Below the pieces are notes generated by a model, which saw only the letters and a program-made list of their open reading frames with translations, did not search any database and was not told the origin of the DNA. Of a stretch of DNA of 56,774 bases, positions 6,015 to 41,070 are shown piece by piece (positions within the stretch are counted from its first letter, which is position 1; each line of letters begins with the position of its first letter). The position numbers and the translations under genes were made by a program. Location: positions 1 to 56,774 of the IMG/VR virus record IMGVR_UViG_3300048998_000127. One strand, 5' to 3'. The DNA is from a virus (Duplodnaviria; Caudoviricetes).

Positions 6015-6238
6015 CCAAGGAACGCGCGATGCGGGCACGCATGACGTGCCCGGTGTGCGGGAAGCGCAACGTGCGCGTGACCATCAAGGCCGGCCACAAC
6101 CTGCGCAGCGTGACCGGAACGCTGTCGGTGCACGGCGGCCTGTTCAACAACCCAGCCACCGGCAAGGCGGCCGACTGCGGTGGGAGCAACCGCACCATCC
6201 CCTCCAGAGACCTGCCGCCCGAAAGCACGTGGTCATGA
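6011..6238 (+). CDS. Small CxxC-H-C zinc-finger-like protein
   Basis: CPVCG...H...CGGS; ATGA overlap. Confidence 0.7.
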   Translation: MTKERAMRARMTCPVCGKRNVRVTIKAGHNLRSVTGTLSVHGGLFNNPATGKAADCGGSNRTIPSRDLPPESTWS

Positions 6239-6501
6239 TGGGCGGGACCTCGCCGATACGGCGACTGATGGCATGCCCGCACTGCGGAAACCGCGCTGTC
6301 CTCGCGATCATGCGGCACGGTGACGGCCGAACGAAGCCACCGAAGCCGGCCAGCCTGGTCATGGACAACCACTTCCCACCCGGCAAGCGGGACCTGTGCG
6401 CGACGTCGGAGAAGCGACTGGGCGACGCGCTCTGGCCGCAGTGGGCGAAGACGGCCCTGGCCAATCACCAGGAGAAGCAACGAGAGAAGGGGAAGCCGTG
6501 A
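6235..6501 (+). CDS. Small CxxC-H-C zinc-finger-like protein
   Basis: CPHCG...H...CATS; ATGA overlap. Confidence 0.65.
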   Translation: MMGGTSPIRRLMACPHCGNRAVLAIMRHGDGRTKPPKPASLVMDNHFPPGKRDLCATSEKRLGDALWPQWAKTALANHQEKQREKGKP

Positions 6502-6689
6502 CGGGTAAGAAGCGCGGCGTCCGGCTGCACATCGAGTACACGAAGCGCGACGGCAAGCGCGCCTCGTTCTGGGCGGACGCGCCGATGGACTGGGACGCGC
6601 CACGCGGACCGCGCCGAGGCTGGGCGGAGACGGCGGCGGCCAAGCACCACCCGGGAGCGACCGAAGCTTCCGTGATCGGCAGGGAGTGA
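6498..6689 (+). CDS. Hypothetical protein
   Basis: GTGA overlap, VTGKKRGVRLHIEY. Confidence 0.65.
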   Translation: MTGKKRGVRLHIEYTKRDGKRASFWADAPMDWDAPRGPRRGWAETAAAKHHPGATEASVIGRE

Positions 6690-10063: not shown

Positions 10064-10264
10064 TCACTCGTCTGCCGCTTCACGTTCCGCCCGGGTGCCC
10101 TGCCACGCCCCCACGTGCAGCCACGCGTTCGCGTACAGCGAGCACAGAGCCACCCACAGGACCGAGTCCTTCCACCACAGCGCGGTCGGCACGGCCAGCA
10201 CCACCCAGATGCCGGCCAACGCCAGGTGCAGGTTACCCAGCTTGCGGGCGGTCCGCTTGCTCAC
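10064..10264 (-). CDS. Small two-TM membrane protein
   Basis: GTGA overlap with protease stop; WWKDSVLWVALCSLYAN. Confidence 0.7.
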   Translation of the reverse strand: MSKRTARKLGNLHLALAGIWVVLAVPTALWWKDSVLWVALCSLYANAWLHVGAWQGTRAEREAADE

Positions 10265-13047
10265 GACGCGTGGCTCTTGGCCCGCTTCGCGTTCCAGTCC
10301 GCGACCGCAGAGCACGCCTCGGCCCGGCTGCCCGGGTTGACCTTCTGGAGGCCCGGGAAGTTCAGGTCGCCGGTGGCGCACATCTTCTTCGCCACGTTCA
10401 CGGCCGTCGCGATGGCCCGGCTCGTGTCCATGGCCTTCTTCTCCAGGTGCTTGCGGATGCGGTCGATGTACTTGGGCAGGCCGCCGGCCTTCTGCACCCA
10501 GTTCTGGGCGAAGGCGATGTCCGCGTCGGTCACCTCCCCGAAGTGCTCGCACAGCGCGGTGAACCAGGCGTCTGGGCCGGCGACATCCAGGAGGCGTTCG
10601 TGCAGCTCCTCCACGGTGGGGCCTTCGACTGCGACCGGCATGAGCGTCTCGCCGGTCAGCTGGGCGAACTGGACGGACAGCTTGCCGTACTCGGCCTGCA
10701 CGTAGTCATCGAGCACGGCCGACAGCCGGTCCATGTCGGCGGCCACCTGCCGGTGGTACTCCTGCCGCTCCAGCACCGCGTCCGCCAGGGCGGCCATGTC
10801 GAGCTTGCCGGACGCGGCCAGCTGCACCACCGGCTCCTCCCGCAGCACGCCACCGGCAACCAGCGCCATGGGCATACCGGAGGCGACGCGGGCACGCGGC
10901 ACCGGGAAGCCAGGCGTGTTCACGGACAGGACGGCCACCAGCTCCAGGTTGCCGCCGATGTTCCGCCAGTCGCCCGACGGCGGGGCCGCGACGAACTCGC
11001 GCAGCTGGGCCGGGGTGAGGTGGTCGCGCACCACGCCGGACACCCAGATGCCGAAGGCATCCTCGCCGCACACCACGTCCGCGCCGACGGTGCCGGTGTG
11101 GTCGTAGTGGGCGACGGCAGGCCTGGCCGCGAGTCGGTCGCTGGCGTGGCCGGTGCCGAAGGTGATGTGGCCGGTTCCGATGGGGCCGGCGTCGGTGAGC
11201 ACCTGGCCGGTGTGGAAGTAGGCGTACTTCGAGGCGCTGCGCGGGGCGGTGACACACTGGCCGCCGAAGCCGATGTGGCAGGTGCCCCAGGTGGCGATGT
11301 GGCCGAAGACGCGGCGCAGCGCCGGGCCGCCGGCCACGTCGGTGAAGGTGAGCGGCGTGGGGCTGGTCAGGTTGGGGTTGGCGAAGGCGGACGCCGGCAG
11401 CTTCGGGTAGGCGGCGGCGGTGACGCTGGGTGCGGTGCCGTCCAGTGGGTAGTCCGTGTGCTTGTTGCCGATGGCCACGCGCGCCTTGCTGAAGTTGACG
11501 GGGCCCATGCGGGTCAGCTTGCTCTGGGCGACGTTGTAGCCGGCGGTGATGTGCGGCTTGTACGGGCCGTGGCTGGGCGGCAGCTGCTTACCGACGGCCG
11601 CCAGCTTGGCATGCAGGTGGCCGGTGAGGTTGCTGTGCAGGGAGTGCAGCGCGCTGGAGTCGCCCAGGTCGTAGACGGTGGCCGGCTTCATGGTGCCTGT
11701 GGGGCCGCCGTCGGCGTTCCAGGTGGCGTGGCCCATGACGCGGGCCTTGATGCTGCGGCCCTGGCCGGGCGGCAGTGGATTGTCCGGCGCAGCCCCGCCA
11801 GCGGCCCGGACAGATGTGGGGTCTGCGCCGCCTTCTACCGTGGAATCGTCGGCGGACTGCTCGTCGACGGGGTCGCCACCGTGGTTGTGGCCGGCGAGCG
11901 CGGCCGTCACCGCCTCGTGCACGGCATCCACCTGCTGCGGCGACCACTGGTCCAGGTCGTCGCCCAGGTAGGCCAGGGTGCAGTGCATCTCATCGGCCGG
12001 GTCACCGCCGTCCACGGCGAACGACTCCGGGTCATCGGGCACCAGCGCGATCATGCCGCTGTTGTCGTAGGCCGGGTTGCCGGCGGCCTTCAGGTCCTGC
12101 TCCCACGGTGCGACCTCACCGATCCGGCGGGCCAGGGCGGCGGCCACGGCCATGGTGGCGGAGTCGGCCACGGGCGTCTTCTCGGCGGCGGCGTCGGCCA
12201 GGCGGGTCACGTTGCGGCGCACCAGGTCGGGCACCAGGTGGTACTGGCCTTCGGCGTCGACACGAGCCATGCGCATGGCGTGGTAGTTCTCGCCGTCGAT
12301 GTCGTGCAGCAGCCAGCCGCGCGGGTCGTGGTCGGGACCGTCGGCCAGCTCCGCCCCGGGGTCGGCCACGGGCAGCCCGATCAGCTCACGCAGGGCTGGC
12401 GCGGCCTTGCCGGCGAGGCACGGCGAGCACGCGTCGCCCAGGTCGCTGGAGCGCCACATGGGCGTCATCGAGGCGGTCAGGCCGACAGCGGGTGCGATCG
12501 ACTCGCCATCGAGCACGACGTACGCATCCGGGAAGGCGGGCAGGCCTACCAGCGTGGTGGCCCCGATGACGCCGGAGGTCATGCGCATCTGGCCGGGGTC
12601 GTCAGGGTTGTCGTCGGCCATCACCACCTGGGCGTCGACGGCGGACAGGTCCACGCTGTTGCCGGACAGCGCCCCGTCCTTGACCATGCGGTAGGCGGGC
12701 ACGTCGGTGTACATCCAGCCCTTGCCGGACCAGACGGCCACGTCGTCGGGGAACGGCTGGCCGGTGGACTTGGAGGTGACCTCGCTGCCCGGCCGTCGGG
12801 TGAGCTCGGTGAGCGCCCCGACGATGTCCGCACCATCGTGGCCTTGGCCGCCTTCGGGGGTGCGGGTCTGGGCGTAGATGGTGAGCGGCACGGCCCGGTG
12901 GGTGAGCGCGCCCTGTTCGATGAAGCGGCGGTCGGCGGTCTCCATGCCTTCGAGGGCGAGGACGGGGAACTCGATGGGGACCGCGTTCTCCGGGATGGAG
13001 GTGTCGGCCGGCTGCCCGGTGATGGGGTTGAGCGTCGGGGCGGTCAT
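10261..13047 (-). CDS. Capsid maturation protease, multidomain, with embedded 2H phosphoesterase
   Basis: Follows portal; N-terminal protease-like domain (EGMETADRR...GHDGADIVG); second protease-like domain (GHIATWGTCH...SGDWR..LELVAVLSVNTPGFP); HCT and HIT motifs in between. Confidence 0.85.
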   Translation of the reverse strand: MTAPTLNPITGQPADTSIPENAVPIEFPVLALEGMETADRRFIEQGALTHRAVPLTIYAQTRTPEGGQGHDGADIVGALTELTRRPGSEVTSKSTGQPFPDDVAVWSGKGWMYTDVPAYRMVKDGALSGNSVDLSAVDAQVVMADDNPDDPGQMRMTSGVIGATTLVGLPAFPDAYVVLDGESIAPAVGLTASMTPMWRSSDLGDACSPCLAGKAAPALRELIGLPVADPGAELADGPDHDPRGWLLHDIDGENYHAMRMARVDAEGQYHLVPDLVRRNVTRLADAAAEKTPVADSATMAVAAALARRIGEVAPWEQDLKAAGNPAYDNSGMIALVPDDPESFAVDGGDPADEMHCTLAYLGDDLDQWSPQQVDAVHEAVTAALAGHNHGGDPVDEQSADDSTVEGGADPTSVRAAGGAAPDNPLPPGQGRSIKARVMGHATWNADGGPTGTMKPATVYDLGDSSALHSLHSNLTGHLHAKLAAVGKQLPPSHGPYKPHITAGYNVAQSKLTRMGPVNFSKARVAIGNKHTDYPLDGTAPSVTAAAYPKLPASAFANPNLTSPTPLTFTDVAGGPALRRVFGHIATWGTCHIGFGGQCVTAPRSASKYAYFHTGQVLTDAGPIGTGHITFGTGHASDRLAARPAVAHYDHTGTVGADVVCGEDAFGIWVSGVVRDHLTPAQLREFVAAPPSGDWRNIGGNLELVAVLSVNTPGFPVPRARVASGMPMALVAGGVLREEPVVQLAASGKLDMAALADAVLERQEYHRQVAADMDRLSAVLDDYVQAEYGKLSVQFAQLTGETLMPVAVEGPTVEELHERLLDVAGPDAWFTALCEHFGEVTDADIAFAQNWVQKAGGLPKYIDRIRKHLEKKAMDTSRAIATAVNVAKKMCATGDLNFPGLQKVNPGSRAEACSAVADWNAKRAKSHAS

Positions 13048-15782
13048 GCCGTCACCTTCCCTGAGATGAAGCGCTGCTGGAGTCGCTGTATGTGGTCGTG
13101 GCGGTCACGGAGTGTTTGCGCGGTGGTGCCGTTGCGGCCGGCGGCGTCATCGAGGTCGGCCAGCCGGATGATGTTGGTCATGTCGGTGCCGGGGGTGGCG
13201 AGCGCTTCGCGGACGGTCTGGCTGTAGCGGGGCACGGCGTAGGCGGGGACGGTGTCGCACATGCAGCCGTGGTGGTCGCCGGGGTGCATGTGGTCTCCGA
13301 GCCATTCGTAGCCGGGTGGCGGGTTGAGCTGGGCGTCTGACCAGTTGGCGAAGCGGATGCCTTCGATGTGCCGGTGGGGCTCGAACTGGTCGGGGGCGAG
13401 GGTGACGCCGTACACCCACAGGTGGCCGAGTTCGACGGCACCGGCGGTGTCGAGCTCCTGTTGCACGGTGTGGCCGTTGGCGAGGCCGGTGGCGTTGCTG
13501 GTGGCCTTGCCGTTGGTGTTGACGTGCGTTCCGGGCTGGGTGCCGCCGATGTCGGCGAGGACCGCGCGGATGGTGCCGGGTTGCACGGTGGTGTCCGCGA
13601 GGTCCGAGGGGCTGGGCTTGTGTTCCCCGTACAGGACCTTGTCCGCCAGGTCGTGCAGGGTGCCTTCCAGTCGGTCCCAGCCGTCATCGACGCGGGCGGC
13701 CATGGTGCGGCGGACGCGTTCGGTGAGGTCTCGGTGTTCGCGGGTGCCGCTGCGGAGTCCGAGCATGGTGGCGAGCTTGCTGACGATGGCGTCGACGGCG
13801 GCGAGGGTCCACTTGGTGAACTTGACCTGGAGGCCGGCGAAGGCACCGGCGAGCAGGAAGTCCGTGGTGGCCCCGGCGGTGAGCGCACGGTCTCGGCCGA
13901 TGACCTGGCCGAACTGGTGGGGTCCGCACTGGCGGAGCTGGCCGATGAGCTGGTTGTCTCCGGACAGCTTGGCGCGCAGTCGGCTGGACGCCTTGGCCAC
14001 GGCCTGCTGGAGCGCGGCATCGGCGGCGGTGACGAGGCGGTCACGCAGGGTGCGCTCGATCTCCACCATGTCGCGCATCTCGGCGAAGGTGAGCCGGTAC
14101 TCCTCGTCGCCGTCGACGGTGGCGGCGGCCATGAGGGCGAAGCGCTGGTACAGCTCGTGGAGTCCGCCGTCGGCGCTCACGCCGGTGGGCGGGGCGGGTG
14201 CGCTGCCACCCTCCTTCGGCGTGCCGGGCGACAGGGCGGGCGGCGTGCTGGTGCTCCCAGCGGGCAGAGCCGGCGCTCCGGGCGTTCCCGGCTTCTCGGT
14301 GATGGTCTCGCGCTCTGGGATGACCGGCGTCTCGCCAGGGACCAGGAGGCGCTGGATGAGCTGGCCGGCGGTGATCGGGTCCAGGCCGATCTTGAACAGG
14401 GCCATGAGAAGCATCTCGTGCTCCTCCGGCTTGTCGGTGTCGGAGAAGCCCAGCGCCTCGCGGAACGCGTCCCAGCCGATGCCGCCCCGGTCGAAGGCGT
14501 CGATGGCGTCCTGTCGCCGGTTGGTGTTCTCCGTGATGTTGGCGGCGTCGTACCAGACGCGGATCTTGCGCACCTCGGCCGGGTCGTAGCCCATGTCGAT
14601 CAGGGTCGTGCGCAGGAAGGCCACGGTGAGGCTGTCGACCATGCGCCGGACGCTGGGCTCGATGTGGTAGCGGAAGGTGCTGGCGTCGATCTGCCATGCC
14701 GACCAGTGGTTGGCGTCGCCCACGCCGGACACGACCTCCGGCGGCAGATCGAGGCCGCGCGCCATGCGGGTGAGCTCCCGGTCCACCTTGCCGCCGAGGT
14801 CGGCCGACGACTCGCGCTCGAAGGTGATGTGCCGGATGGCCTTGATGTCCTCTTCGCTACCGGTGAGGACGGCGGGGGCAACGGCTCCGGCGTCACCCTC
14901 GTTGGTGATGGGGGCGAGCAGGACGGCGGTCAGGTCGGCCATGAAGTTGTTGGACTGCGCGGCCGTGACCCCGTCGTCCCCATCCTCGCGGATGTTGCGC
15001 ATGAGGGTCATGGTGTTGGGGATGGCCAGGATGCCGTTGGTGGCCGACCGGGATCGGCTCACGGCGCGCAGCTCACGCCCGAACAGGACGATGTTCTCGA
15101 ACGTGTCCAGGGTGGCCTGGCAGGGCGAGTCGGCCAGGTAGCCTTCCCGGGGGTGCTGCACCCACAGGCGGAACAGCTCCTCCGTTTTCCAGTCCACGTC
15201 ACGGTCGGTGCCCGGGTTGACGTCGGACTGGACCTTCACGGTGCGGCCGTCGGGCGAGACTTTGACGCCGTCGATGGAACGGATGCGCCAGGTCTCCTCG
15301 CCCGTGTCCGGGTCCGTGAAGCCGTGCAGCCAGCAGTCCCCGGCGATGTCGAAGTTCTCCGACCAGATGCCCAGGAAGCTGAAGCCATCGTCGATCGGCA
15401 GGCGGTTGAGGTTGTCGATGGCGGCCCGGGCCAGGTCGTGGTCCACGGTGACCTGGTGCGCCTTGTCGGGGTCGTCGATGAGCGACAGCGGAACCGGCTT
15501 ATCGTCGTCGCCATCGATCTGGGCGGCGTACAGCCGCACCCGGCTGATGGCACCGGACCGGTAGCCGGTGGCGAAGCGCAGCTCCGGGATGAGATCCCGA
15601 TACTTCCACGCCAGGGACTGCCACTCGCGACGGGCGACAGCCAGCACGCGCAACGCCTGCGCGTTGGTGGCGGGCTGCACGCGCATGCCGGCGGCCCGCA
15701 GCTGGGCGACGTGATGGGACTTGCCGGGCTCCACGACTTCGTGGCGGCGGAATCCTTCAGCGGCGGAGGTGACCACGGCCAC
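13044..15782 (-). CDS. Portal protein fused to C-terminal MuF-like head morphogenesis domain
   Basis: W..Y...PELRFA, RLWVQHP...ADSP, RMARGLDLPPEVVSGVGDANHWSAWQI portal motifs; C-terminal HPGDHHGCMC. Confidence 0.88.
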   Translation of the reverse strand: MAVVTSAAEGFRRHEVVEPGKSHHVAQLRAAGMRVQPATNAQALRVLAVARREWQSLAWKYRDLIPELRFATGYRSGAISRVRLYAAQIDGDDDKPVPLSLIDDPDKAHQVTVDHDLARAAIDNLNRLPIDDGFSFLGIWSENFDIAGDCWLHGFTDPDTGEETWRIRSIDGVKVSPDGRTVKVQSDVNPGTDRDVDWKTEELFRLWVQHPREGYLADSPCQATLDTFENIVLFGRELRAVSRSRSATNGILAIPNTMTLMRNIREDGDDGVTAAQSNNFMADLTAVLLAPITNEGDAGAVAPAVLTGSEEDIKAIRHITFERESSADLGGKVDRELTRMARGLDLPPEVVSGVGDANHWSAWQIDASTFRYHIEPSVRRMVDSLTVAFLRTTLIDMGYDPAEVRKIRVWYDAANITENTNRRQDAIDAFDRGGIGWDAFREALGFSDTDKPEEHEMLLMALFKIGLDPITAGQLIQRLLVPGETPVIPERETITEKPGTPGAPALPAGSTSTPPALSPGTPKEGGSAPAPPTGVSADGGLHELYQRFALMAAATVDGDEEYRLTFAEMRDMVEIERTLRDRLVTAADAALQQAVAKASSRLRAKLSGDNQLIGQLRQCGPHQFGQVIGRDRALTAGATTDFLLAGAFAGLQVKFTKWTLAAVDAIVSKLATMLGLRSGTREHRDLTERVRRTMAARVDDGWDRLEGTLHDLADKVLYGEHKPSPSDLADTTVQPGTIRAVLADIGGTQPGTHVNTNGKATSNATGLANGHTVQQELDTAGAVELGHLWVYGVTLAPDQFEPHRHIEGIRFANWSDAQLNPPPGYEWLGDHMHPGDHHGCMCDTVPAYAVPRYSQTVREALATPGTDMTNIIRLADLDDAAGRNGTTAQTLRDRHDHIQRLQQRFISGKVTA

Positions 15783-16814: not shown

Positions 16815-17215
16815 GATCCCTGGACGCGCGAGGCGTGCAGCGCGTTCAGCCGGGAGCGCAGGGCGAAGAAGCGCGGCCATCCCGACACGTCCATGCCGGC
16901 CAGCACGTCGTGGGCAAGGTCGGCGGTCCCGAGATCCTCGGCGTCAAGGGCGGTGGCCAGCTCGTCCAGCCACCAATTGATCTCCTCGATGCGCTCCCGC
17001 CGTCGGCGGGCGTCCTCCTGCCGGGCCGCCAGGGCGGCGGCGGCGGCCTTGCGCGCACGGCGAGCCTTGAAGCCCCGCCAGATCAGCCACGGCCAGGAAA
17101 GGGGCATCCAGAAGGCCAGCACGAACTGCCAGCCCTTGGCCACCCAGTCCTTGCCGGCAGGTGCGGCGTACCACGTGAGCCAGCCAACCAGCGCGAAGAA
17201 CACCAGGACGCCCAT
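16811..17215 (-). CDS. Membrane protein
   Basis: TGATG overlap; two N-terminal TM segments. Confidence 0.65.
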   Translation of the reverse strand: MGVLVFFALVGWLTWYAAPAGKDWVAKGWQFVLAFWMPLSWPWLIWRGFKARRARKAAAAALAARQEDARRRRERIEEINWWLDELATALDAEDLGTADLAHDVLAGMDVSGWPRFFALRSRLNALHASRVQGS

Positions 17216-17427
17216 CAGAGCCACGGCCTTGACTCGGGCACGCGTTGGAACTCGGAGCGGCTCAGCCATACGGCCAGCTCGCCCGCCTTTTCCGGCTTGA
17301 CCAGCCAGCGCTCCGGCGTGTGAGTGCGGTCGTCCTTGGCCTGCCAGTCGGTGATTCGGCCCAGCTTGCCCGGGACCTTGGTGGAGTGCACCCGGTCCCC
17401 GTTCTTCAGCGGTTGCGCCATGATCAT
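17215..17427 (-). CDS. Hypothetical SH3/KOW-like small protein
   Basis: LKNGDRVHSTKVPGKLGRI pattern. Confidence 0.6.
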   Translation of the reverse strand: MIMAQPLKNGDRVHSTKVPGKLGRITDWQAKDDRTHTPERWLVKPEKAGELAVWLSRSEFQRVPESRPWL

Positions 17428-17630
17428 TTCCTCTTCGGTCGGACGTACTCATGCATGAGCATGACGGCCACGGCGGCCAGGTCGTTCGGGTCGATCGTCA
17501 GGGCGTCGCCATCCTCGTTGTGCAGGGTGAGCGGCTCCCCGTCTTCGTGGTCTTCGAGGTAGTAGCCGCGCTCCTCGGCCGCCGGCCTGTACCAGTGCTG
17601 CTCGAAGTCGCGGCCCTTGGCGGACATCAC
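17424..17630 (-). CDS. Hypothetical protein
   Basis: Overlapping start/stop chain. Confidence 0.65.
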   Translation of the reverse strand: MMSAKGRDFEQHWYRPAAEERGYYLEDHEDGEPLTLHNEDGDALTIDPNDLAAVAVMLMHEYVRPKRK

Positions 17631-17725
17631 GCCCCGTCCGGGTGGGGTCGGTCGTCGTCCGGGCCGTTCATGCGGTCGTTGAGCTCGAAGGTTTCGGCCA
17701 ACTCGATGTAGTCGATGTCCGTCAT
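17627..17725 (-). CDS. 32-aa acidic peptide (likely leaderless)
   Basis: MTDIDYIELAETFELND...; ATG 6 nt after the -10. Confidence 0.55.
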   Translation of the reverse strand: MTDIDYIELAETFELNDRMNGPDDDRPHPDGA

Positions 17726-17731
17726 GTGTCT

Positions 17732-17760
17732 ATCTAACCCCACGAGACGGTGGGTGTCAA
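17732..17760 (-). promoter_or_regulatory. Promoter with palindromic spacer
   Basis: TTGACA-CCCACCGTCTCGTGGGG-TTAGAT; 25 nt identical to the 24741-24765 promoter region. Confidence 0.75.
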
Positions 17761-17772
17761 CACCTGCGGGCA

Positions 17773-17843
17773 AACGAAAGGCCCAGGGGGTCCGGTCGTC
17801 TGGACCGGTGCTCGCCGCCATGTAGCACCCCTGGGCCTTCGTT
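17773..17843 (-). terminator. Terminator-like stem enclosing two hairpins, ends the ncRNA cluster
   Basis: GGCCCAGGGG/CCCCTGGGCC followed by TTTCGTTT. Confidence 0.6.
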
Positions 17844-17975
17844 GTGCAGGTCCGCCACGCGGTGCGGATCCCTGCGAGCTCTACCCGTTCGGCGGAGGCC
17901 CGCCAGGTCCCTCCCGACTTCGATCTCTCCGGGCCTTCCTGGTGGCATATCCGCGCGTAGCGGCGCGTGTGCCCT

Positions 17976-18043
17976 GCGGGTGAGCGGGACTCGAACCCAG
18001 CACCTCCCCTACGCGGGGGCTCTGCCAATTGAGCTACCACCCT
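17976..18043 (-). tRNA. tRNA-like RNA 1 (non-canonical anticodon arm; identity not assignable)
   Basis: GGGTGG/TCACCC acceptor, TAGCTCAATTGGCAGAGC D arm, GGGTTCGAGTCCC T arm; anticodon arm CCCC-GCGTA-GGGG. Confidence 0.7.
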
Positions 18044-18047
18044 GTTC

Positions 18048-18132
18048 GGTGCCCGCCAGCCCTCTACTAGTCCCCGGTTCCCGGTTGCGAGGCCGGTACT
18101 AAGGGGAGTGTTCAAGGGCCGGTCGGGGCACC
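18048..18132 (-). ncRNA. Structured rod with two AGUA/GAA bulged-G motifs
   Basis: Four stacked helices; internal loops UAGUA/GAAC twice. Confidence 0.6.
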
Positions 18133-18178
18133 CGGCGGCTGGCTATCGTGACCCGCCGGCCACGGCTCCTACCGCCTT

Positions 18179-18250
18179 GCGTGGTGCCGGGGACGCGAAC
18201 CCCGGATCTCCCGGCCTGAACCGGATGCTCTGCCGTTGAGCTACACCACT
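18179..18250 (-). tRNA. tRNA-like RNA 2 (6-nt anticodon loop UUCAGG)
   Basis: GTGGTG/CACCAC acceptor, TAGCTCAACGGCAGAGC D arm, TCCGG-TTCAGG-CCGGG, CCGGGG-TTCGCGT-CCCCGG. Confidence 0.75.
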
Positions 18251-18354
18251 CCACCTGGTCGCCAGACGTAGCTGGCCCTGGGAGTTTGTTCCGGCCCGGT
18301 CGTTGCGAGCGAGTCACGGCATGGTTGCCGCCGGGCCGGTGGTCTTCACCTGTC

Positions 18355-18384
18355 AACCTACACACCGCCGCTACAGGCTGTCAA
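18355..18384 (-). promoter_or_regulatory. SigA-type promoter of the ncRNA cluster
   Basis: TTGACA-N18-TAGGTT. Confidence 0.7.
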
Positions 18385-18643
18385 CGCCTTCCGGCAGCAG
18401 CACCACCAGAGGGAAGGGAACATCCCACAGCTTGACCTTCAGGCCCAGCAGCAGGGCACCGTCGAAGCCGTTCGGGTAGCTCATCGGGACCAGCAGCTGC
18501 CATCGCAGGTACGGCGATACGTACGGACGTAGGTGGTAGACCTGCATGGCCGCCGTGACAGCAGCGTGCATCTCCTGCGCGTTGGCCCCGATGCCGGCCC
18601 CGCATGCCGCCCACATCTGGTCCAGGACGTCGTCCGTGCTCAC
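18371..18643 (-). CDS. Hypothetical protein
   Basis: GTGA overlap; VSTDDVLDQMW. Confidence 0.65.
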   Translation of the reverse strand: MSTDDVLDQMWAACGAGIGANAQEMHAAVTAAMQVYHLRPYVSPYLRWQLLVPMSYPNGFDGALLLGLKVKLWDVPFPLVVLLPEGVDSL

Positions 18644-19098
18644 CGGGGCCACCAGTCGGGCAGGGTGTCGAAGTCGGGCCGCCAGTCGACAGGCAGCAGC
18701 GACGGCAGGAGCACCGGCACGTACTCCGGCAGCGGCACCTTCCCGTAGTGCATGGACCACGGACGGTGGCGCACCCCCAGGTTGAGGTCATCGAAGGTGC
18801 GGTCGACGCTCTCGCTAAGGCCGCCGCCCTTGATCACCAGCTTGGTGTAGAGCGTGAGCCTGGAGAAACACCACGGGCTGCGCTCGGTCACGATCTGTCG
18901 CGGGTCGCCCCGGTGCGCCGCCCAGCGGGCCCGCAGGTGGATGGGCCGCCAGGTGCGCGGCCTCTTGCTGCTGTCCCAGTCCAGCATCGTGATGTCGGGC
19001 CGGCCGGCCAGCGAGCGCGTGACGTACAGGTTGACGGACAGCTCGGATCCGATGGTCTCGACCAGCTCTGACGGCTGGACGGTCAGGTCGTCGCTCAC
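18640..19098 (-). CDS. Hypothetical protein
   Basis: GTGA overlap; VSDDLTVQPSEL. Confidence 0.65.
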   Translation of the reverse strand: MSDDLTVQPSELVETIGSELSVNLYVTRSLAGRPDITMLDWDSSKRPRTWRPIHLRARWAAHRGDPRQIVTERSPWCFSRLTLYTKLVIKGGGLSESVDRTFDDLNLGVRHRPWSMHYGKVPLPEYVPVLLPSLLPVDWRPDFDTLPDWWPR

Positions 19099-19419: not shown

Positions 19420-19449
19420 ATTCAATCCCACCGCGACGGTGGGTGTCAA
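19420..19449 (-). promoter_or_regulatory. Promoter with palindromic spacer
   Basis: TTGACA-CCCACCG-TCG-CGGTGGG-A-TTGAAT. Confidence 0.75.
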
Positions 19450-19452
19450 CCC

Positions 19453-19656
19453 CTACTTGCTGATGCCACTGTGCGTGAACCCGCAGCAACGGCAGGTGTT
19501 CGGCTTCGTGCTGGTCGGGTCACACGCGCAATCGCACTTCCAGCACACCACGAGATCCGTGCTCAGGTGCTCGCACTCGCACTTGCAGGCGATCGTGACC
19601 CCGTTGCGCTTGGTGGTCAGCGGCTGCCCGGAGCGGCCCACGTAGCGTCCGGTCAC
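19453..19656 (-). CDS. Cys-rich microprotein
   Basis: CKCEC...CWKCDCAC...CRCC (10 Cys in 67 aa). Confidence 0.65.
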   Translation of the reverse strand: MTGRYVGRSGQPLTTKRNGVTIACKCECEHLSTDLVVCWKCDCACDPTSTKPNTCRCCGFTHSGISK

Positions 19657-24735: not shown

Positions 24736-24764
24736 ATTCAACCCCACGAGACGGTGGGTGTCAA
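24736..24764 (-). promoter_or_regulatory. Promoter with palindromic spacer
   Basis: TTGACA-CCCACCGTCTCGTGGGG-TTGAAT. Confidence 0.75.
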
Positions 24765-24800
24765 CCCCTGCCCCGGGGAAGTGGAGCAGGGGTTGACGGT

Positions 24801-28082: not shown

Positions 28083-29630
28083 TCATCGCCTCCCGGCCGA
28101 TGCGGCGGCGTGCCGCAGGTTCGTAGCGTGGTGCCGCTGGATGACGCCCTCCGCCTTGCGCAGCCCCTCGCCGCCGGTCATCTTGACCAGGTGCTGGATG
28201 GCGTAGACGTAGGCGTCCATGCGGTCGGGGGACTGCCGCATGGCCGTGGTCCAGGTGGTGAGCTGGTCTTCCAGCTTCTCGAAGATGCCCACGTGGTGGA
28301 CCAGGTGGTGGGAGCAGATGGTGCTGATCGGCTCCGCACGGACCCGCTTGCCGTCCTTCGCCCGGATCTTCTCGATGGGGATGGGCAGCTTGCGGTGGAG
28401 CACCTTCTCCGTGGCCCTGATCAGATCCACCAGCGCCTGGCCGCCGTTGTTGACCTCGATCACCACGGCGTTGCAGTTCCACGCGTCGTAGCCGTCGACG
28501 ATGGCCTGCGCCCAGACGGCCGGCGACTCCCGCACGGTCAGGTCCGCGAGGATGTAGACGTGATCGTCATTGCCGAGGCCGGCCACGATGATGCCGGTCT
28601 CATCCGGGTCCTTGCGGGCGAAGCGGGTCGAGCCTTCCCCGGTGCGCTCCTCCACGGCAGGGTCCACGGCCATGACGGTGTAGGCGATCTCGAACGGCAC
28701 GGTGAGGCCGTTGGGCAGGTCCACCCACTCCGGCGGCCCCTGCTCGTACCGGTCGGCCGCGATCTGTGACAGCTTCCACAGCGCGCCCCGGACTTCGTCG
28801 ACCAGCTCGCCACCCAGCTCCTGGAGGCCCAGGGTGGTGCCGTCGTAGGCGGAGTGCAGGGACCGCAGCGTGGAGGCCGGCAAGTTGGCGGCGTTGTCGT
28901 CGGTGGTGCCGCGACGGACCGCGCAGTACGGGTCCTTGATCAGGGCCTTGATCTGCGCGAGGGGCAGCGGCGTGGTGGTGGCGACGATCTGCGGACGCTT
29001 GCCCAGGCGGAGGCCGAAGGTCAGCATGTCCCACGAGTCGATGGCGCGGAGCAGCACCTGGGCCAGCTCGTCCACCCAGGCGCGATGGTGCTGCGGGCCG
29101 CGCAGGCGAGCCGGCTTCTCACCCGAGAACAGCTTGTACCGGCTGCCCGTCTGTTTGATGATCAGCTCGCCGATGGAGCGATTCCAGGTGTGCGGCACCT
29201 GCATGCGGTCCAGGACGGAGATCAGGCCGGACTCACCTTCGACGCACGTGTCCCGGGCGTCGGCGTAGGTGGGGGCGACGACGGCCATGCGCCAGTTGAA
29301 GTTCAGCACGCCAGCGGCGGCCATGTCCTCCGCCGCGCTCCGGGTCTTGCCGGTGCCTCGGCCGCCCAGGTAGAGGGTGACGTCGAAGTCACGGTCGGGG
29401 GTGCGCTGCTCCGGTCGGCAGCGGGCACAGGAGTGGCAGCGCGTGCAGCTGTCGCCGTGTATCAGGCACCGGCGACTCACGCGATCCCAGTTGCTGGCCA
29501 GCTGCGACGACGGCCATGCGGCGGTGTCCTTGCTCTGGCAGTCGCTGTCCCGCCAGTCCCGGATCTCCTTCAGCCACTGGGCTTCGCTCCGGGCCTCCAT
29601 GCGTTCGGCGGACCGGAGAAGGAAGGTCAC
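28083..29630 (-). CDS. terL: Terminase large subunit
   Basis: Walker A GGRGTGKT, LRGPQHHRAWVDE (Walker B), TTTP, nuclease AVDPA...DETGII...SPDRMDA; GTGA overlap with TerS. Confidence 0.93.
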   Translation of the reverse strand: MTFLLRSAERMEARSEAQWLKEIRDWRDSDCQSKDTAAWPSSQLASNWDRVSRRCLIHGDSCTRCHSCARCRPEQRTPDRDFDVTLYLGGRGTGKTRSAAEDMAAAGVLNFNWRMAVVAPTYADARDTCVEGESGLISVLDRMQVPHTWNRSIGELIIKQTGSRYKLFSGEKPARLRGPQHHRAWVDELAQVLLRAIDSWDMLTFGLRLGKRPQIVATTTPLPLAQIKALIKDPYCAVRRGTTDDNAANLPASTLRSLHSAYDGTTLGLQELGGELVDEVRGALWKLSQIAADRYEQGPPEWVDLPNGLTVPFEIAYTVMAVDPAVEERTGEGSTRFARKDPDETGIIVAGLGNDDHVYILADLTVRESPAVWAQAIVDGYDAWNCNAVVIEVNNGGQALVDLIRATEKVLHRKLPIPIEKIRAKDGKRVRAEPISTICSHHLVHHVGIFEKLEDQLTTWTTAMRQSPDRMDAYVYAIQHLVKMTGGEGLRKAEGVIQRHHATNLRHAAASAGRR

Positions 29631-33075: not shown

Positions 33076-34416
33076 TCAAGCCGCCCGGTCGGTGATGTCG
33101 CCACGGTGCGCTCGCCAGTCCAGCTCTACGGTGCCGGTCCGGCCGTGCCGGTTCTTCGCCACGATGAAGTGCACGGTGCCCAGGTGCTGCACGATGGTCG
33201 AGCCGTCCGGCATGGTGTCGGTGCTGGTCGGCCGGAACAGCAAGATGATGCCGTCCGCGTCCTGCTCGATCGCGCCTGACTCGCGCAGGTGCTTGGCTTC
33301 CGGAGCGCCGTCGCCCTGACGGTTGAGCTGGGCGAGCACCACCACGGGGATGTGCAGCTCCTTCGCCAGCTGTTTGAGGGCATGAGACATGGCCGCAACC
33401 TGCTCCTGGCGGTTGGGCCCGGAGGTGGTCTTCAGCAGCTGGAGGTAGTCAACTACCAGGAGTTTCAGCCCGTGACGGCGGGCGAGGGCCCGCGCGTGCG
33501 AGACGATCATGGCGACGGTGATGTTGGGCGCGTCCACCACCCACAGCGGGATGTCCTGTTCCTTGATCCAGCGGCCGTACTGGGCGGCGTCGCTCAGTAC
33601 CCGGTCCGATGGTGCGAAGGAGGTGAACTCGGACAGCTCCTCGCGCAGGGAGCGCGCCATCCAGCGGTCCATCAGTTCGTTGCGGGACATCTCCGCGCTG
33701 ACGACCAGCGTGTTGTAGCCGGACTCGGCCGCCGTCCAGGCCAGGCTGCCACCGGCCAGCGTCTTGCCGTCGCCCGGTCGCGCGCCGAACACGTACAGGC
33801 CGCCAGGTCGCAGGCCGCCACCGTTGAAGATGGCGTTGACCTCGGCCCACGGGGTGGGGATCACCTCGAAGGCGGGGCCGCCAGCCAGCTCACCCAGGTA
33901 TTCGTCCACGAAGTCGGTTACCCGAACCGCGTCGCCGTCGCCCGTGGTCTGGTTCTCGATGTCCCGCCAGGTGCGGGACGCCTGCTCCATGATGTCGTCG
34001 AAGGCGTCAGCGTCGCCCATGTCGGCCAGCTGGGTGAGCCGCTGGCCGAGTGCGCCGATGCGCCGCATGCGGGCGGCCTTGGCGACACGTTCGGCGGCCA
34101 GCGGTGCCCAGCCGGCCACCGGCATGTCCACGCACTCGCGGGTGATGATGGCGTGGCACATGCGCAGCTTGGGCCCGGACGTGGCGGCGGCCAACGCGCT
34201 GTGCATCGCCCCGACGTCCAGCGTTTCGCCGTTGGCCGCGTAGGTGCCGATCACGCGCCAGATCAGCTCACGGGCCGGGTTGGTGAAGTCCTGCGGCCCC
34301 ACGGCGCGCAGGGCGTCCGCCAGGTCGTCGGCCAGCTGCGGGTACATGGCCAGGCCCATGAGGGTGGCTTCATCGTTGTCCAGCTGCTGCTGCCTGTCGG
34401 CAGCTGCCATGGTCAC
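33076..34416 (-). CDS. dnaB: DnaB-like replicative helicase
   Basis: GARPGDGKT, SAEM, VVDYLQL, LAQLNR, LRESGAIEQDAD, AKNRHG. Confidence 0.95.
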   Translation of the reverse strand: MTMAAADRQQQLDNDEATLMGLAMYPQLADDLADALRAVGPQDFTNPARELIWRVIGTYAANGETLDVGAMHSALAAATSGPKLRMCHAIITRECVDMPVAGWAPLAAERVAKAARMRRIGALGQRLTQLADMGDADAFDDIMEQASRTWRDIENQTTGDGDAVRVTDFVDEYLGELAGGPAFEVIPTPWAEVNAIFNGGGLRPGGLYVFGARPGDGKTLAGGSLAWTAAESGYNTLVVSAEMSRNELMDRWMARSLREELSEFTSFAPSDRVLSDAAQYGRWIKEQDIPLWVVDAPNITVAMIVSHARALARRHGLKLLVVDYLQLLKTTSGPNRQEQVAAMSHALKQLAKELHIPVVVLAQLNRQGDGAPEAKHLRESGAIEQDADGIILLFRPTSTDTMPDGSTIVQHLGTVHFIVAKNRHGRTGTVELDWRAHRGDITDRAA

Positions 34417-40202: not shown

Positions 40203-40762
40203 GCGGCGGACTGAGTGTTTCGGGTGTCGGGCGGCTGGGCGGTGAGCCGGAGCTGTCCTTCACGGGGTCCGGCGCGGCTGTGGTGTCGGTGTCGGCCGCA
40301 TTCACGGTGCGCGTCCTGGACAAGGCCAGCGGGCAGTGGAAGGACAAGTCCACCACGTGGGTGCGCCTGAACATCTGGCGGCAGATGGCGGAGAACGTGG
40401 CCGCCTCGCTGTCGAAGGGCGACTCGGTTTTCGTGGAAGGCACGCTGGAGAGCCGCGAGTACGAGAAGTCCGACGGCACGAAGGGCCAGTCCTGGGAGAT
40501 CCTGGTCGACACGATCGGGCCGGACCTGCGCTTCCAGCAGGCGAAGACGGTCCGCCCGGAGCGTAACCAGGGCAGCGGCGGCTTCGACGCTCCGCCGGTC
40601 GAAGACCCGTGGACGGGGGAGCCGGCGGCGCAGCGGACGCGGCCTCCGGCCCAGCAGGGGCACGCGCGGACCGGCCAGTGGTCGAACGGCCAGCCCACCG
40701 GCCAGCAGCCGACGCCGCAGAACTACGGCGGCGGTGGCTTCGCCGATGAGCCGCCGTTCTGA
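40199..40762 (+). CDS. ssb: Single-stranded DNA-binding protein
   Basis: GRLGGEPELSFTGSG...WRQMAENVAASLSKGD; C-terminal DEPPF. Confidence 0.95.
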   Translation: MSGGLSVSGVGRLGGEPELSFTGSGAAVVSVSAAFTVRVLDKASGQWKDKSTTWVRLNIWRQMAENVAASLSKGDSVFVEGTLESREYEKSDGTKGQSWEILVDTIGPDLRFQQAKTVRPERNQGSGGFDAPPVEDPWTGEPAAQRTRPPAQQGHARTGQWSNGQPTGQQPTPQNYGGGGFADEPPF

Positions 40763-41070
40763 TGGGCGGCCACGACGAAGCGCCGGCCGAGCACGAGTTC
40801 GGCATCACGGAGGCGGAGCAGGCTGAACTGGACAACCTGTTCAGCTACCACGCTCCGCATGGCGACCAGGTGGACCGGTATGGCGTGATCCGGATGCAGG
40901 CCCGACAACTGGCCCGCGTGATCATGGCCTACTCCGTCGACAGCGAGGAGCGGCGACAGGCGCTGTTCGCTGTGCGCGCTGCGGTCATGTGGGCCAACGC
41001 GGGCATCGCCTGCAATGAGCCCCCGCCGGACGACACGATGCCGGCCGCATGGGTGGGCGGCATCCGGTGA
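40762..41070 (+). CDS. Acb2/Tad1-like helical-hairpin protein (candidate nucleotide-signal sponge)
   Basis: FSYHAP...QVDRY..IR...EERRQAL..VRAAVMWANAGIA. Confidence 0.65.
   Translation: MGGHDEAPAEHEFGITEAEQAELDNLFSYHAPHGDQVDRYGVIRMQARQLARVIMAYSVDSEERRQALFAVRAAVMWANAGIACNEPPPDDTMPAAWVGGIR

What the first reader, a model, noticed from the sequence alone, without database searches (positions are those of the whole stretch)
17770..18384. Dedicated ~600-nt non-coding RNA operon
Seen: own promoter (TTGACA-N18-TAGGTT) and terminator-like end, no credible RBS-led ORF, and near-continuous structure on the minus strand: a branched domain closed by CCGGCCCGG/CCGGGCCGG, tRNA-like 2, hairpins, a bulged-G rod, tRNA-like 1, further stems, and a branched terminator. 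Inference: a polycistronic RNA in which tRNA-like folds are processing signals or decoys and the intervening domains are released small RNAs. Hypothesis: an RNA-based counter-defence that mimics targets of host ribonuclease toxins. This is my best candidate for an undescribed system, alongside the cassette array.
Basis: partly seen in the sequence, partly recalled or inferred. Interest (0 to 1): 0.85.

Follow-up and report, generated by a model that had tools for sequence, protein, structure and literature searches.

The report
Phage operon of tRNA-shaped noncoding RNAs
An uncultured soil phage of high-GC bacteria carries a self-contained, evolutionarily conserved stretch of about 580 bases that encodes no protein but a chain of folded RNAs, two of them shaped like tRNAs that almost certainly cannot read codons; what these RNAs do is still unknown.

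Summary
Window 17726-18370 has no coding signal. On the minus strand it carries a promoter-like site (18384-18355), two tRNA-shaped modules (18250-18178, 18044-17975), three other folded modules and a conserved hairpin terminator (17840-17771).

The operon recurs in six related uncultured phage contigs out of 80 portal-related loci. It is better conserved than the small genes beside it. Its stems show compensatory changes.

Across 11 tRNA-shaped copies the acceptor, D and T arms covary. The anticodon arm varies freely in length, and only one copy comes near a canonical arm. ARAGORN's "tRNA-Leu(CAG)" is therefore probably not a decoding tRNA. No Rfam family other than tRNA matches.

More distant relatives have ordinary tRNA genes at the same place, so the operon probably descends from a phage tRNA cluster.

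My best reading is inferred, not shown. Host tRNA-processing enzymes cut at the tRNA shapes and release stable structured RNAs. The 135-nt rod with an invariant internal loop would then bind a protein.

No RNA data exist. This scan has noted similar tRNA-framed RNA operons in other phages. I class this as a new variant of a known kind, of moderate interest.

The parts
18355..18384 (-). Promoter-like site TTGACA-N18-TAGGTT (-35 at 18384-18379, -10 at 18360-18355). The stop codon of the upstream gene (18373-18371) lies in its spacer. The transcription start near 18349 is inferred.
   Evidence: enrichment; boxes kept in L008, L007, L012, L003; 90% identity to L008
18251..18354 (-). Leader. It holds a branched domain closed by 18339-18331 paired with 18299-18291, then a short hairpin and the conserved GGUGGA just before tRNA-like 2.
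   Evidence: fold, z -0.79, not significant alone; one compensatory change in the closing stem; 69% identity
18178..18250 (-). tRNA-like 2 (ARAGORN: tRNA-Leu CAG). The acceptor and T stems read as 6+6 pairs. The T loop has C where A58 is expected. The anticodon stem has a G-G mismatch or a 6-nt loop. There is no long variable arm.
18045..18177 (-). Rod module. It comprises hairpin H1 (18176-18134) and a long rod H2 (18132-18048). H2 has an invariant internal loop GAACAC / CUAGUAG, a second AGUA/GAA-type loop and an apical loop with invariant UCGCA.
   Evidence: z -3.63; 12 of 43 pairs with double changes; 89.5% of cells paired against 81.4% in shuffles; compensatory 18107+18071 in a soil contig
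17975..18044 (-). tRNA-like 1. It has intact acceptor, D and T arms, a 1:72 A-G mismatch and a bulged T stem. The anticodon arm is cut to about 4 pairs with a 5-nt loop, and the D-to-T interval is 18 nt instead of 22-23.
   Evidence: (contigs of other organisms match only here, with 5-7 extra letters at 17999-18013)
17841..17974 (-). Trailer module. It holds a hairpin after the tRNA-like, a 34-nt core at 17939-17906 that recurs in L008/L083, L005 and L102 (the L004 contig), and a hairpin at 17875-17846 with the conserved loop ACCGCGUG.
   Evidence: 6 of 35 pairs with double changes; 90% identity to L008
17771..17840 (-). Terminator-like hairpin, branched inside, followed by UUUCGUUUG.
   Evidence: z -3.34; stem conserved in 6 of 6 aligned sequences
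17723..17760 (-). Next transcription unit: promoter TTGACA-N18-TAGATA (17760-17731) and the leaderless ATG (17725-17723) of a 32-aa ORF. It bounds the RNA operon and is not part of it.
   Evidence: conserved in all 7 aligned sequences; 96% identical 28-nt copy at 24744-24771

Best explanation
This is a real, selectively maintained non-coding RNA operon of about 580 nt. It belongs to a lytic-looking siphovirus of soil Actinomycetota. The host phylum is inferred from the 68% GC content, the promoter type and the distant portal relatives.

The operon most likely descends from a phage tRNA gene cluster that sat between the terminase and portal genes. Host RNA polymerase would read it from a sigmaA-type promoter and stop at the conserved hairpin.

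The two tRNA-shaped modules keep the parts that tRNA-processing enzymes measure: a 12-position acceptor/T-arm stack and the D/T-loop elbow. They have lost a working anticodon arm.

I infer that host RNase P and RNase Z (or 3' exonucleases) cut at these modules. That would release and stabilise three pieces: the leader domain, the 135-nt rod, and the trailer with its terminator.

The rod and trailer, which carry invariant unpaired nucleotides, would be the active products. They most likely bind a host or phage protein.

Shown here: non-coding status, conservation, covariation and tRNA ancestry. Inferred: transcription, cleavage, and what the products bind.
For: - **No coding signal:**
- **Conservation island:** identity to L008 is 0.74-0.89 per 100 nt across 17700-18399, with one dip to 0.58 in the 18200-18299 bin that holds most of tRNA-like 2. 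The flanking small genes show 0.55-0.71. The operon is one of few segments in the 16.5-25.8 kb region that blastn still detects in L007, L003, L012 and L004.
- **Recurrence:** the operon was found in 6 of 80 portal-related loci, namely all loci with at least 56% portal identity that cover the upstream region.
- **tRNA-like arms covary:** in 11 sequences 86.4% of cells are paired against 67.3% in shuffles. There are 29 double-change cells against 10.0. The covariation score is 0.491 against 0.132 (0 of 500 shuffles). Slid controls give 35-46% paired.
- **Anticodon arm is unconstrained:** the D-to-T interval runs from 18 to 29 nt in the 10 copies my script parsed. The 11th, L003_b, has a stem of about 10 bp with a 5-nt loop in the fold. 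Only 1 of 11 copies comes near a canonical 5-bp stem and 7-nt loop with U33.
- **ARAGORN calls:** a triplet anticodon in 3 of 11 copies, an abnormal loop in 3 and no call in 5.
- **1:72 position:** unpaired in 9 of 11 copies.
- **Rod:** z -3.63, and 20 double-change cells against 8.8 (0 of 500). An independent soil contig carries the compensatory pair 18107/18071.
- **Strand:** 18 G-U cells in the rod, and the fold is more stable on the minus strand.
- **Module conservation:** the trailer is 90% and the rod 76% identical to L008, against 63% for tRNA-like 2.
- **Ancestry:** relatives with 27-30% portal identity have canonical tRNA-Met, Lys and Arg genes 0.5-1.5 kb upstream of the portal.
Against: - There are no expression data of any kind, and no listed run is RNA. 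Transcription, ends and cleavage are therefore all inferred.
- Only about seven distinct homologues exist. Covariation statistics on 4-5 related sequences are weak, and the shuffle control does not correct for relatedness.
- The leader and trailer are not more stable than shuffles (z -0.79 and -0.20).
- tRNA-like 2 passes Rfam's tRNA threshold (37.3 against 29 bits) and ARAGORN calls it tRNA-Leu(CAG), so it might still be a working tRNA.
- The 1:72 mismatch, the bulged T stem of tRNA-like 1 and the C at T-loop position 58 of tRNA-like 2 could weaken recognition by processing enzymes.
- No protein partner is indicated. None of the 10 distinct flanking ORFs scanned against PHROGs has an annotated function. 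Two had hits: the portal, and one ORF matching a family of unknown function.
- The upstream gene ends inside the promoter, so the operon may be co-transcribed with it.
Confidence: 0.5

Rival explanations
1. The transcript works as one large structured RNA or RNP scaffold and is not cut. The tRNA-shaped domains would be built-in handles that tether a tRNA-binding protein or enzyme, as in YrlA/Y RNAs or in GOLLD RNAs that carry tRNAs in their linker.
For: - All modules sit in one promoter-to-terminator unit and are co-conserved.
- GOLLD and ROOL are phage RNAs often near tRNA islands, and GOLLD sometimes has tRNAs in its linker (passages read in 10.1101/2024.12.08.627333).
- The hexamer CUCGCA occurs three times in the operon, a count reached in 2 of 2000 shuffles. 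This may mark a repeated binding site.
Against: - No Rfam family other than tRNA matches the window at gathering scores or this region at E up to 10.
- No TROVE/Ro60 domain appears among 90 ORFs.
- Module content differs between relatives. L012 lacks tRNA-like 2, L004 and L005 lack the rod, and L008 has an extra tRNA-like. That fits separable units better than one fixed fold.
- I saw no conserved long-range pairing between modules.
Confidence: 0.2
2. The tRNA-shaped RNAs and the loop-E rod would be decoys or sponges that absorb host tRNA- or rRNA-cleaving defence nucleases such as VapC, PrrC or PARIS-type systems.
For: - The operon sits among small promoter-led genes of unknown function and has a consensus host-type promoter.
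- Phage tRNAs with altered anticodon loops have been proposed to evade tRNA-targeting defences (PMC10264068; search listing and start of abstract only).
- The rod carries AGUA/GAA-type internal loops. Naming them a bulged-G or loop-E motif rests on my recall.
- The phage carries one recognisable anti-defence domain elsewhere, Acb2/Tad1 at 40843-41013.
Against: - Anticodon nucleases read the anticodon loop (my knowledge). Here that arm is the least conserved part and differs in length and sequence among orthologues.
- The inner AGUA/GAA loop is missing in L007 and L012, and no GAGA-type tetraloop is present.
- Nothing was tested that links the RNAs to any nuclease.
Confidence: 0.12
3. This is an ordinary small phage tRNA operon. 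tRNA-like 2 would be a working, slightly unusual tRNA reading CUG, tRNA-like 1 a decaying pseudogene, and the spacers ordinary precursor sequence.
For: - ARAGORN calls tRNA-Leu(CAG), and Rfam scores it at 37.3 bits, above the threshold.
- It has 4 of 5 anticodon-stem pairs and a 7-nt loop with U33 and a purine at position 37.
- Distant relatives have real tRNAs at this place.
Against: - A Leu anticodon on a 71-nt class-I body, with no long variable arm and G rather than A at the discriminator, does not fit bacterial tRNA-Leu (my knowledge).
- The T loop has C at position 58.
- The orthologues in L007, L008 and L003 have different, non-canonical loops.
- The spacers are more conserved than the tRNA-like itself and they covary.
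- tRNA-like 1 keeps compensatory changes in its stems, so it is not decaying freely.
Confidence: 0.1
4. This is a DNA-level or RNA-primed element, such as a replication origin that uses a non-coding transcript, as in some extrachromosomal mycobacterial prophages.
For: A promoter-driven non-coding RNA is required for replication of some cluster A prophages (passages read in PMC7157519).
Against: - No parABS, integrase or repressor-type family appears among the 19 Pfam families found in 90 ORFs.
- G-U pairs and the strand asymmetry of folding point to an RNA structure.
- The tRNA-like modules have no described role in such origins.
Confidence: 0.03

Closest known systems
Stable RNAs 'species 1 and 2' (rnaC, rnaD) in the tRNA gene cluster of phage T4, and RNase P-processed phage small RNAs such as the C4 RNA of P1/P7 (recalled; my search found no paper with the phrase)
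   Same: Non-coding RNAs of unknown or regulatory function are co-transcribed with, or shaped like, tRNAs in a phage. They are matured by the host's tRNA-processing enzymes.
   Different: Here no clearly functional tRNA remains in the operon. The modules share no detectable sequence or Rfam relationship with those RNAs. The host is a high-GC actinobacterium.
GOLLD and ROOL large ornate RNAs of phages and prophages (10.1101/2024.12.08.627333, passages read)
   Same: They are large, highly structured phage-borne non-coding RNAs of unknown function. They are often near tRNA islands, and GOLLD sometimes has tRNAs inside its linker.
   Different: Neither Rfam model matches. The modules here are about 135 nt each and vary in presence between relatives. 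There is no evidence of multimeric assembly.
YrlA-type bacterial and mycobacteriophage Y RNAs (PMC4201824, passages read)
   Same: The RNA has a tRNA-like domain with D and T arms but no decoding function. It is cleavable by RNase P and is a substrate of tRNA enzymes. It occurs in Actinobacteria and their phages.
   Different: No Ro60/TROVE gene is found in the phage. There is no Rfam match. In YrlA the tRNA-like domain is enclosed by the Ro-binding stem, whereas here complete cloverleaf frames lie in series with other modules.
tRNA-like processing signals: mascRNA/menRNA of MALAT1 and MEN-beta (PMC11693755, listing and start of text only), and the tRNA-miRNA units of murine gammaherpesvirus 68, plant-mitochondrial t-elements and the tRNA-punctuation model (recalled)
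   Same: tRNA-shaped folds that do not decode direct RNase P or RNase Z to cut a longer transcript and define the ends of other RNAs.
   Different: Those are eukaryotic or organellar. Cleavage has not been shown here.
Phage tRNAs with anticodon-loop changes proposed to evade tRNA-targeting defences (PMC10264068, listing and start of abstract only)
   Same: They are phage-borne tRNA genes with deviating anticodon loops.
   Different: Those remain decoding tRNAs with point changes. Here the arm is truncated, extended or replaced, and it is not conserved between orthologues.

Membership tests
Canonical tRNA (Rfam RF00005 / ARAGORN) | Cloverleaf with acceptor, D and T arms supported by pairing | tested here: met
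   16 pairs have 86.4% of cells paired in 11 sequences, with a covariation score of 0.491 against 0.132 in shuffles.
Canonical tRNA (Rfam RF00005 / ARAGORN) | Score at or above Rfam's gathering score (29 bits) | tested here: inconclusive
   tRNA-like 2 scores 37.3 bits and meets the threshold. tRNA-like 1 scores 27.6 bits and does not. ARAGORN calls only tRNA-like 2.
Canonical tRNA (Rfam RF00005 / ARAGORN) | 5-bp anticodon stem with a 7-nt loop, U33 and a purine at 37, kept among orthologues | tested here: not met
   tRNA-like 1 reaches at best 2 of 5 pairs. tRNA-like 2 has 4 of 5 pairs with loop UUCAGGC. Its orthologues have the loops GCAGGAG, an 8-nt loop and CCAAA. Only 1 of 11 copies is near-canonical.
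Bacterial tRNA-Leu (class II) | Long variable arm and A73 discriminator (features recalled) | tested here: not met
   The element is 71 nt with a 4-nt variable region, and G follows the acceptor stem.
YrlA / Y RNA | Encoded next to a Ro60 (TROVE) gene | tested here: not met
   19 Pfam families were found in 90 ORFs of the phage, and none is TROVE.
YrlA / Y RNA | Match to a curated Y RNA covariance model | tested here: not met
   cmscan of all 4227 Rfam families gave only tRNA at gathering score. In 17600-18500 at E up to 10 it added two chance-level hits (snoZ206 and SPRY4-IT1_1, E 2.9 and 5.8).
GOLLD / ROOL | Match to the Rfam covariance model | tested here: not met
   No match appeared in the window, in the region or in seven related loci at E up to 1.
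tmRNA | tRNA-like ends plus a tag-peptide reading frame | tested here: not met
   ARAGORN found no tmRNA in the window.
RNase P / RNase Z substrate (tRNA-like processing signal) | Acceptor plus T stem stack of about 12 positions, and a D/T-loop elbow (G18G19, T-loop UUCR) | tested here: met
   The stacks read 6+6 in tRNA-like 2 and 7+5 (with a 1:72 mismatch) in tRNA-like 1. GG is kept in the D loop, and GGUUCG is invariant in 11 of 11 copies.
RNase P / RNase Z substrate (tRNA-like processing signal) | Actual cleavage at the 5' and 3' borders | not testable with these tools
   No RNA run holds the stretch.

The most novel reading that the evidence does not exclude
The operon would be a phage-encoded RNA weapon. 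tRNA-shaped punctuation would recruit the host's own tRNA-processing enzymes to manufacture, early in infection, a loop-E rod RNA and a second structured RNA. These would capture a host protein of the translation or RNA-surveillance machinery, or a defence nuclease that recognises such motifs. That would make this, together with the similar operons the scan has noted in unrelated phages, a widespread and undescribed class of RNA-only host-takeover or anti-defence modules that evolved from phage tRNA arrays.
Probability: 0.12. Interest if true: 0.85.

Novelty: new variant of a known kind. Interest (0 to 1): 0.58.

Why it matters
Phage tRNA genes are usually read as codon-usage helpers or, more recently, as spares against tRNA-cutting defences. 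Here a phage lineage has kept the tRNA frame while discarding the anticodon arm, and has conserved the RNAs between the frames more strongly than the neighbouring genes.

That points to a use of tRNA shape as a processing or handling signal for other phage RNAs in bacteria. This idea is documented for eukaryotic and organellar transcripts but hardly at all for phages.

The rod and trailer are candidate new RNA families with invariant unpaired nucleotides, which gives concrete baits for finding their partners.

ARAGORN labels one module tRNA-Leu(CAG). The case also warns that automatic tRNA calls in phage genomes can hide non-decoding RNAs.

Tried and rejected
- **Cultured phages:** blastn of 17600-18500 against 50,697 phage records found no match. 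The best cultured portal relatives are at most 32.6% identical.
- **Flanking proteins:** two flanking proteins used as queries in viral contigs gave no relatives. Both used ORF boundaries that I later corrected.
- **First PHROG scan:** it used partly wrong strands or frames and gave nothing. I repeated it with GC3-based genes.
- **Generic promoter/terminator scan:** nothing in 17000-19000.
- **RNA evidence:** no RNA holder is listed among 17 runs.
- **Laid contigs:** laying contigs of X2, X3, X4 and X6 gave only DNA contigs. It served for natural variants and nothing else.
- **Antisense targets:** there are 25 reverse-complement 12-mers between the operon and the rest of the genome, against 15.6 (maximum 34) in mononucleotide shuffles. 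I see no convincing target.
- **Pattern scans:**
  - The trailer hairpin pattern returned only three known contigs.
  - The rod pattern returned 16 stretches, of which only the 2 from known contigs matched model R1.
  - The metagenome scan returned one contig 99.3% identical to L008.
  - The 34-nt trailer core has 0 matches in genome contigs and occurs only in known contigs of viral contigs.
  - The tRNA-like 1 frame pattern hit 17 CPR-bacterial contigs. The three I checked carry tRNA-Asp(GUC). This is a likeness of arms only, with no bearing on host.
- **Model R1:** it found no rod outside the five training sequences among the 63 sources I gave it (window, L003-L050, L086-L099). The two other hits had E 0.7-0.8.
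- **More homologues:** the portal search listed new relatives in Logan and ENA at 58-83% identity (P0002-P0005, P0007, P0008, P0010, P0011).
- **Supplements:** the supplements of PMC10690425, a catalogue of 8495 candidate structured RNAs from IMG/VR, are closed. I cannot say whether these modules are already listed there.
- **Readings rejected:** I rejected an attP site because no integrase was found and because the complete tRNA frames covary. I rejected tmRNA. I rejected a small ORF in the trailer because of its low GC3 and the loss of its start codon in L008.
Full report
**What the window is.** The window is a complete IMG/VR virus record of 56,774 bp with direct terminal repeats and about 68% GC. 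A GC3-based gene call gives 98 ORFs. Those from 9784 to 36810 are on the minus strand, apart from one 68-aa call at 19439-19645. They include a DnaB-like helicase (33076-34416), the large terminase (28083-29630) and the portal (13044-15782, phrog_776). Pfam found 19 families in 90 ORFs. None is an integrase, reverse transcriptase, Ro60/TROVE protein, RtcB or CCA-adding enzyme. The nearest cultured portal relatives are phages of Microbacterium, Gordonia, Mycobacterium, Arthrobacter and Streptomyces, at no more than 32.6% identity. An actinobacterial host is therefore inferred, not shown. Runs holding near-identical DNA are all labelled soil metagenome.

**The observation.** The stretch 17726-18370 lies between a 93-aa ORF (18371-18652) and a leaderless 32-aa ORF (17627-17725). 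It has no codon-position GC signal: 0.64-0.74 in all frames over about 17840-18260, against 0.86-0.98 in neighbouring genes.

On the minus strand it begins with TTGACA-N18-TAGGTT (18384-18355). The motif TTGACA-N18-TAGNT matches 3 times in the window against 0.01 expected. A looser motif gives 11 sites against 0.22 expected. The operon therefore uses the phage's common host-type promoter.

It ends with a long hairpin at 17840-17771 (z -3.34). The next promoter and a leaderless ATG follow directly, and these are conserved in all seven aligned sequences. The generic promoter and terminator scan found nothing, because the -10 box and the short U tract do not fit its E. coli-type rules.

ARAGORN finds one tRNA, Leu(CAG), at 18179-18249. 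Rfam finds it at 37.3 bits, finds a second tRNA-like at 17976-18043 at 27.6 bits (below the threshold of 29), and finds nothing else credible.

**Relatives.** The portal protein retrieved 80 loci from IMG/VR. blastn of the non-coding stretch matched six of them: L008 (80% portal identity over the part that contig covers), L003, L007 and L012 (59%), and L004 and L005 (57%). It also gave one 55-nt tRNA match in L047. A metagenome contig, L100, is 99.3% identical to L008.

The alignment with L008 covers the whole unit. Identity by module is as follows:

| Module | Identity to L008 |
|---|---|
| Promoter | 90% |
| Leader | 69% |
| tRNA-like 2 | 63% |
| Rod | 76% |
| tRNA-like 1 | 77% |
| Trailer | 90% |
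| Terminator | 72% |
| Last 36 nt of the upstream gene | 67% |

In 100-nt bins the operon stands at 0.74-0.89, with one bin (18200-18299) at 0.58. The flanking small genes stand at 0.55-0.71, and most of the portal gene at 0.68-0.88. Against L007, L003, L012 and L004, the operon is one of few segments in the 16.5-25.8 kb small-gene region that blastn still detects. The element is under purifying selection.

**The tRNA-shaped modules.** I collected 11 copies from the window and five relatives.
- With a structure of acceptor (7 pairs), D (4) and T (5) stems, 86.4% of cells pair against 67.3% in shuffles. There are 29 cells with changes on both sides against 10.0, and the covariation score is 0.491 against 0.132 (0 of 500). 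Slid controls give 35-46%. These frames are maintained as RNA.
- GGUUCG of the T arm is invariant, and the GG of the D loop is kept.
- The 1:72 position is unpaired in 9 of 11 copies.
- The interval between the D and T stems runs from 18 to 29 nt in the 10 copies my script parsed, where 22-23 is canonical. The script mis-anchored on L003_b, whose arm is a stem of about 10 bp with a 5-nt loop in the fold.
- Only the window's tRNA-like 2 approaches a canonical anticodon arm, with 4 of 5 pairs and loop UUCAGGC.
- ARAGORN gives a triplet anticodon to 3 of 11 copies, a 2- or 4-letter 'anticodon' to 3, and nothing to 5.
- The orthologues of tRNA-like 2 in L007, L008 and L003 carry different loops.
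- tRNA-like 2 itself is a 71-nt class-I body with a Leu anticodon. It has C at T-loop position 58 and a 6+6 acceptor/T arrangement. By what I know of bacterial tRNA-Leu (long variable arm, A73), it should not be charged with leucine.
- Contigs of other soil organisms align only to 17982-18038. They need 5-7 extra letters at 17999-18013, which is the missing part of the anticodon arm of tRNA-like 1.

Model R2, built from the 11 copies, also found elements just upstream of the portal in relatives with 27-30% portal identity. ARAGORN calls those canonical tRNA-Met, Lys and Arg (I gave it 5 of the 6 loci with new hits). The operon thus sits where more distant relatives keep ordinary tRNA genes. 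None of the seven loci with 36-51% portal identity and at least 4 kb of upstream sequence has an R2 match at E below 0.01.

**The modules between the tRNA shapes.** The rod (18177-18045) folds into a hairpin and a long rod, with z -3.63 on the minus strand against -1.96 on the plus strand.
- In five sequences RNAalifold predicts 43 pairs, 12 of them with compensatory changes.
- 89.5% of cells pair against 81.4% in shuffles, with 20 double-change cells against 8.8 (0 of 500). Slid controls give 30-50%.
- Eighteen cells are G-U, which would be mismatches on the other strand.
- The internal loop GAACAC opposite CUAGUAG is invariant in all five. A second AGUA/GAA-type loop is present in three. The apical loop always holds UCGCA.
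- A soil contig from another study carries 18107 and 18071 changed together (U-A to C-G) and 18114 changed from U-G to C-G.

The trailer (17974-17841) is the best-conserved part. Its 34-nt core recurs in the L004/L005 lineage, which has no rod. A four-sequence alignment gives 35 pairs, 6 with compensatory changes. The hairpin at 17875-17846 covaries in L008, L003 and L012.

The leader's closing stem has one compensatory change. By energy alone, the leader and trailer are not distinguishable from shuffles.

Module content differs between phages. L008 has a third tRNA-like. L012 lacks tRNA-like 2. L007, L012, L004 and L005 share another upstream module. The rod of L008/L100 is 91.6% identical to that of L003. 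The operon is a mosaic of separable units.

**Mechanism.** Several things are shown here:
- The unit is non-coding.
- It is conserved.
- Its RNA structure lies on the minus strand.
- The tRNA frames are kept without decoding arms.
- tRNA genes occupy the same place in distant relatives.

The rest is inferred. The parts of the tRNA shape that are kept are those measured by RNase P, RNase Z and the CCA-adding enzyme. I take the ruler idea from the title and abstract of PMC4919913 (listing only). The parts that are lost are those needed for decoding. The strongest constraint lies on the RNAs between the frames.

The simplest reading is that the frames are cutting and stabilising signals, and that the rod and trailer are the products. 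These most likely bind a protein through their invariant unpaired nucleotides. I put this at about 0.5.

The alternatives rank as follows:
- an uncut scaffold of Y RNA or GOLLD type: 0.2
- an ordinary tRNA operon: 0.1
- an RNA-primed origin: 0.03

**Comparison with what is known.** The membership tests for canonical tRNA (anticodon arm), tRNA-Leu, YrlA, GOLLD/ROOL and tmRNA were not met. The closest analogues are:
- the stable RNAs of the T4 tRNA cluster (recalled)
- GOLLD and ROOL
- YrlA
- tRNA-like processing signals of eukaryotic and organellar transcripts

I ran six searches of the held paper library. None returned a description of tRNA-framed non-coding operons in actinobacteriophages. 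A catalogue of candidate structured RNAs from IMG/VR notes 'tRNAs or tRNA-like structures' in general terms (PMC10690425, passages read). Its supplements were closed, so these modules may already be listed there.

This scan has itself noted similar operons in other phages. The kind is therefore recurrent. This case differs in being high-GC and in having no clearly functional tRNA left.

**Limits.**
- There are about seven distinct homologues and no RNA data.
- The host is unknown.
- The covariation controls do not correct for relatedness.

Noticed in passing
window 40762-41070 (+), match at 40843-41013: A small ORF carries an Acb2/Tad1 hairpin domain (44.6 bits, above the cut-off). It is a candidate sponge for cyclic-nucleotide defence signals.
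   Followed up: partly
window 10261-13047 (-): The 928-aa head-region protein downstream of the portal has a weak 2'-5' RNA ligase / 2H phosphoesterase match at residues 385-508 (E 4.9e-4, 20.6 bits, below the cut-off of 27).
   Followed up: no
window 4230-27003, both strands: Eleven sites match TTGAC[ACG]-N16-18-TAnnnT against 0.22 expected. Many have CCCACC in the spacer. The 28 nt at 17740-17767 recur 96% identical at 24744-24771.
   Followed up: partly
L025 1693-1767; L027 9142-9216 and 9401-9475; L047 1421-1494: Relatives with 27-30% portal identity carry canonical tRNA-Met, Lys and Arg genes just upstream of the portal. The window's clade has the tRNA-shaped non-coding operon at that place.
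   Followed up: partly
L100 1-131 versus L003 6834-6963: The rod modules of L008/L100 and L003 are 91.6% identical. The next-best match between the same stretches is 79%. This suggests either exchange of RNA modules between phages or very strong constraint.
   Followed up: no
window 18309, 18091, 17878 (minus strand): The hexamer CUCGCA occurs three times in the operon: in the leader hairpin, the rod apical loop and the flank of the trailer hairpin. At least three occurrences were seen in 2 of 2000 shuffles. Only the first two are kept in relatives.
   Followed up: partly
L007 about 6200-6650; L012, L004, L005 equivalent: Another conserved non-coding module lies upstream of the tRNA-like elements in L007, L012, L004 and L005. 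It is absent from the window, and Rfam has no match for it.
   Followed up: no
window 18206-18200; L007 and L008 orthologues: The 'anticodon' loops of three of the four tRNA-like 2 orthologues share the letters CAGG in different loop sizes. The meaning is unknown.
   Followed up: no
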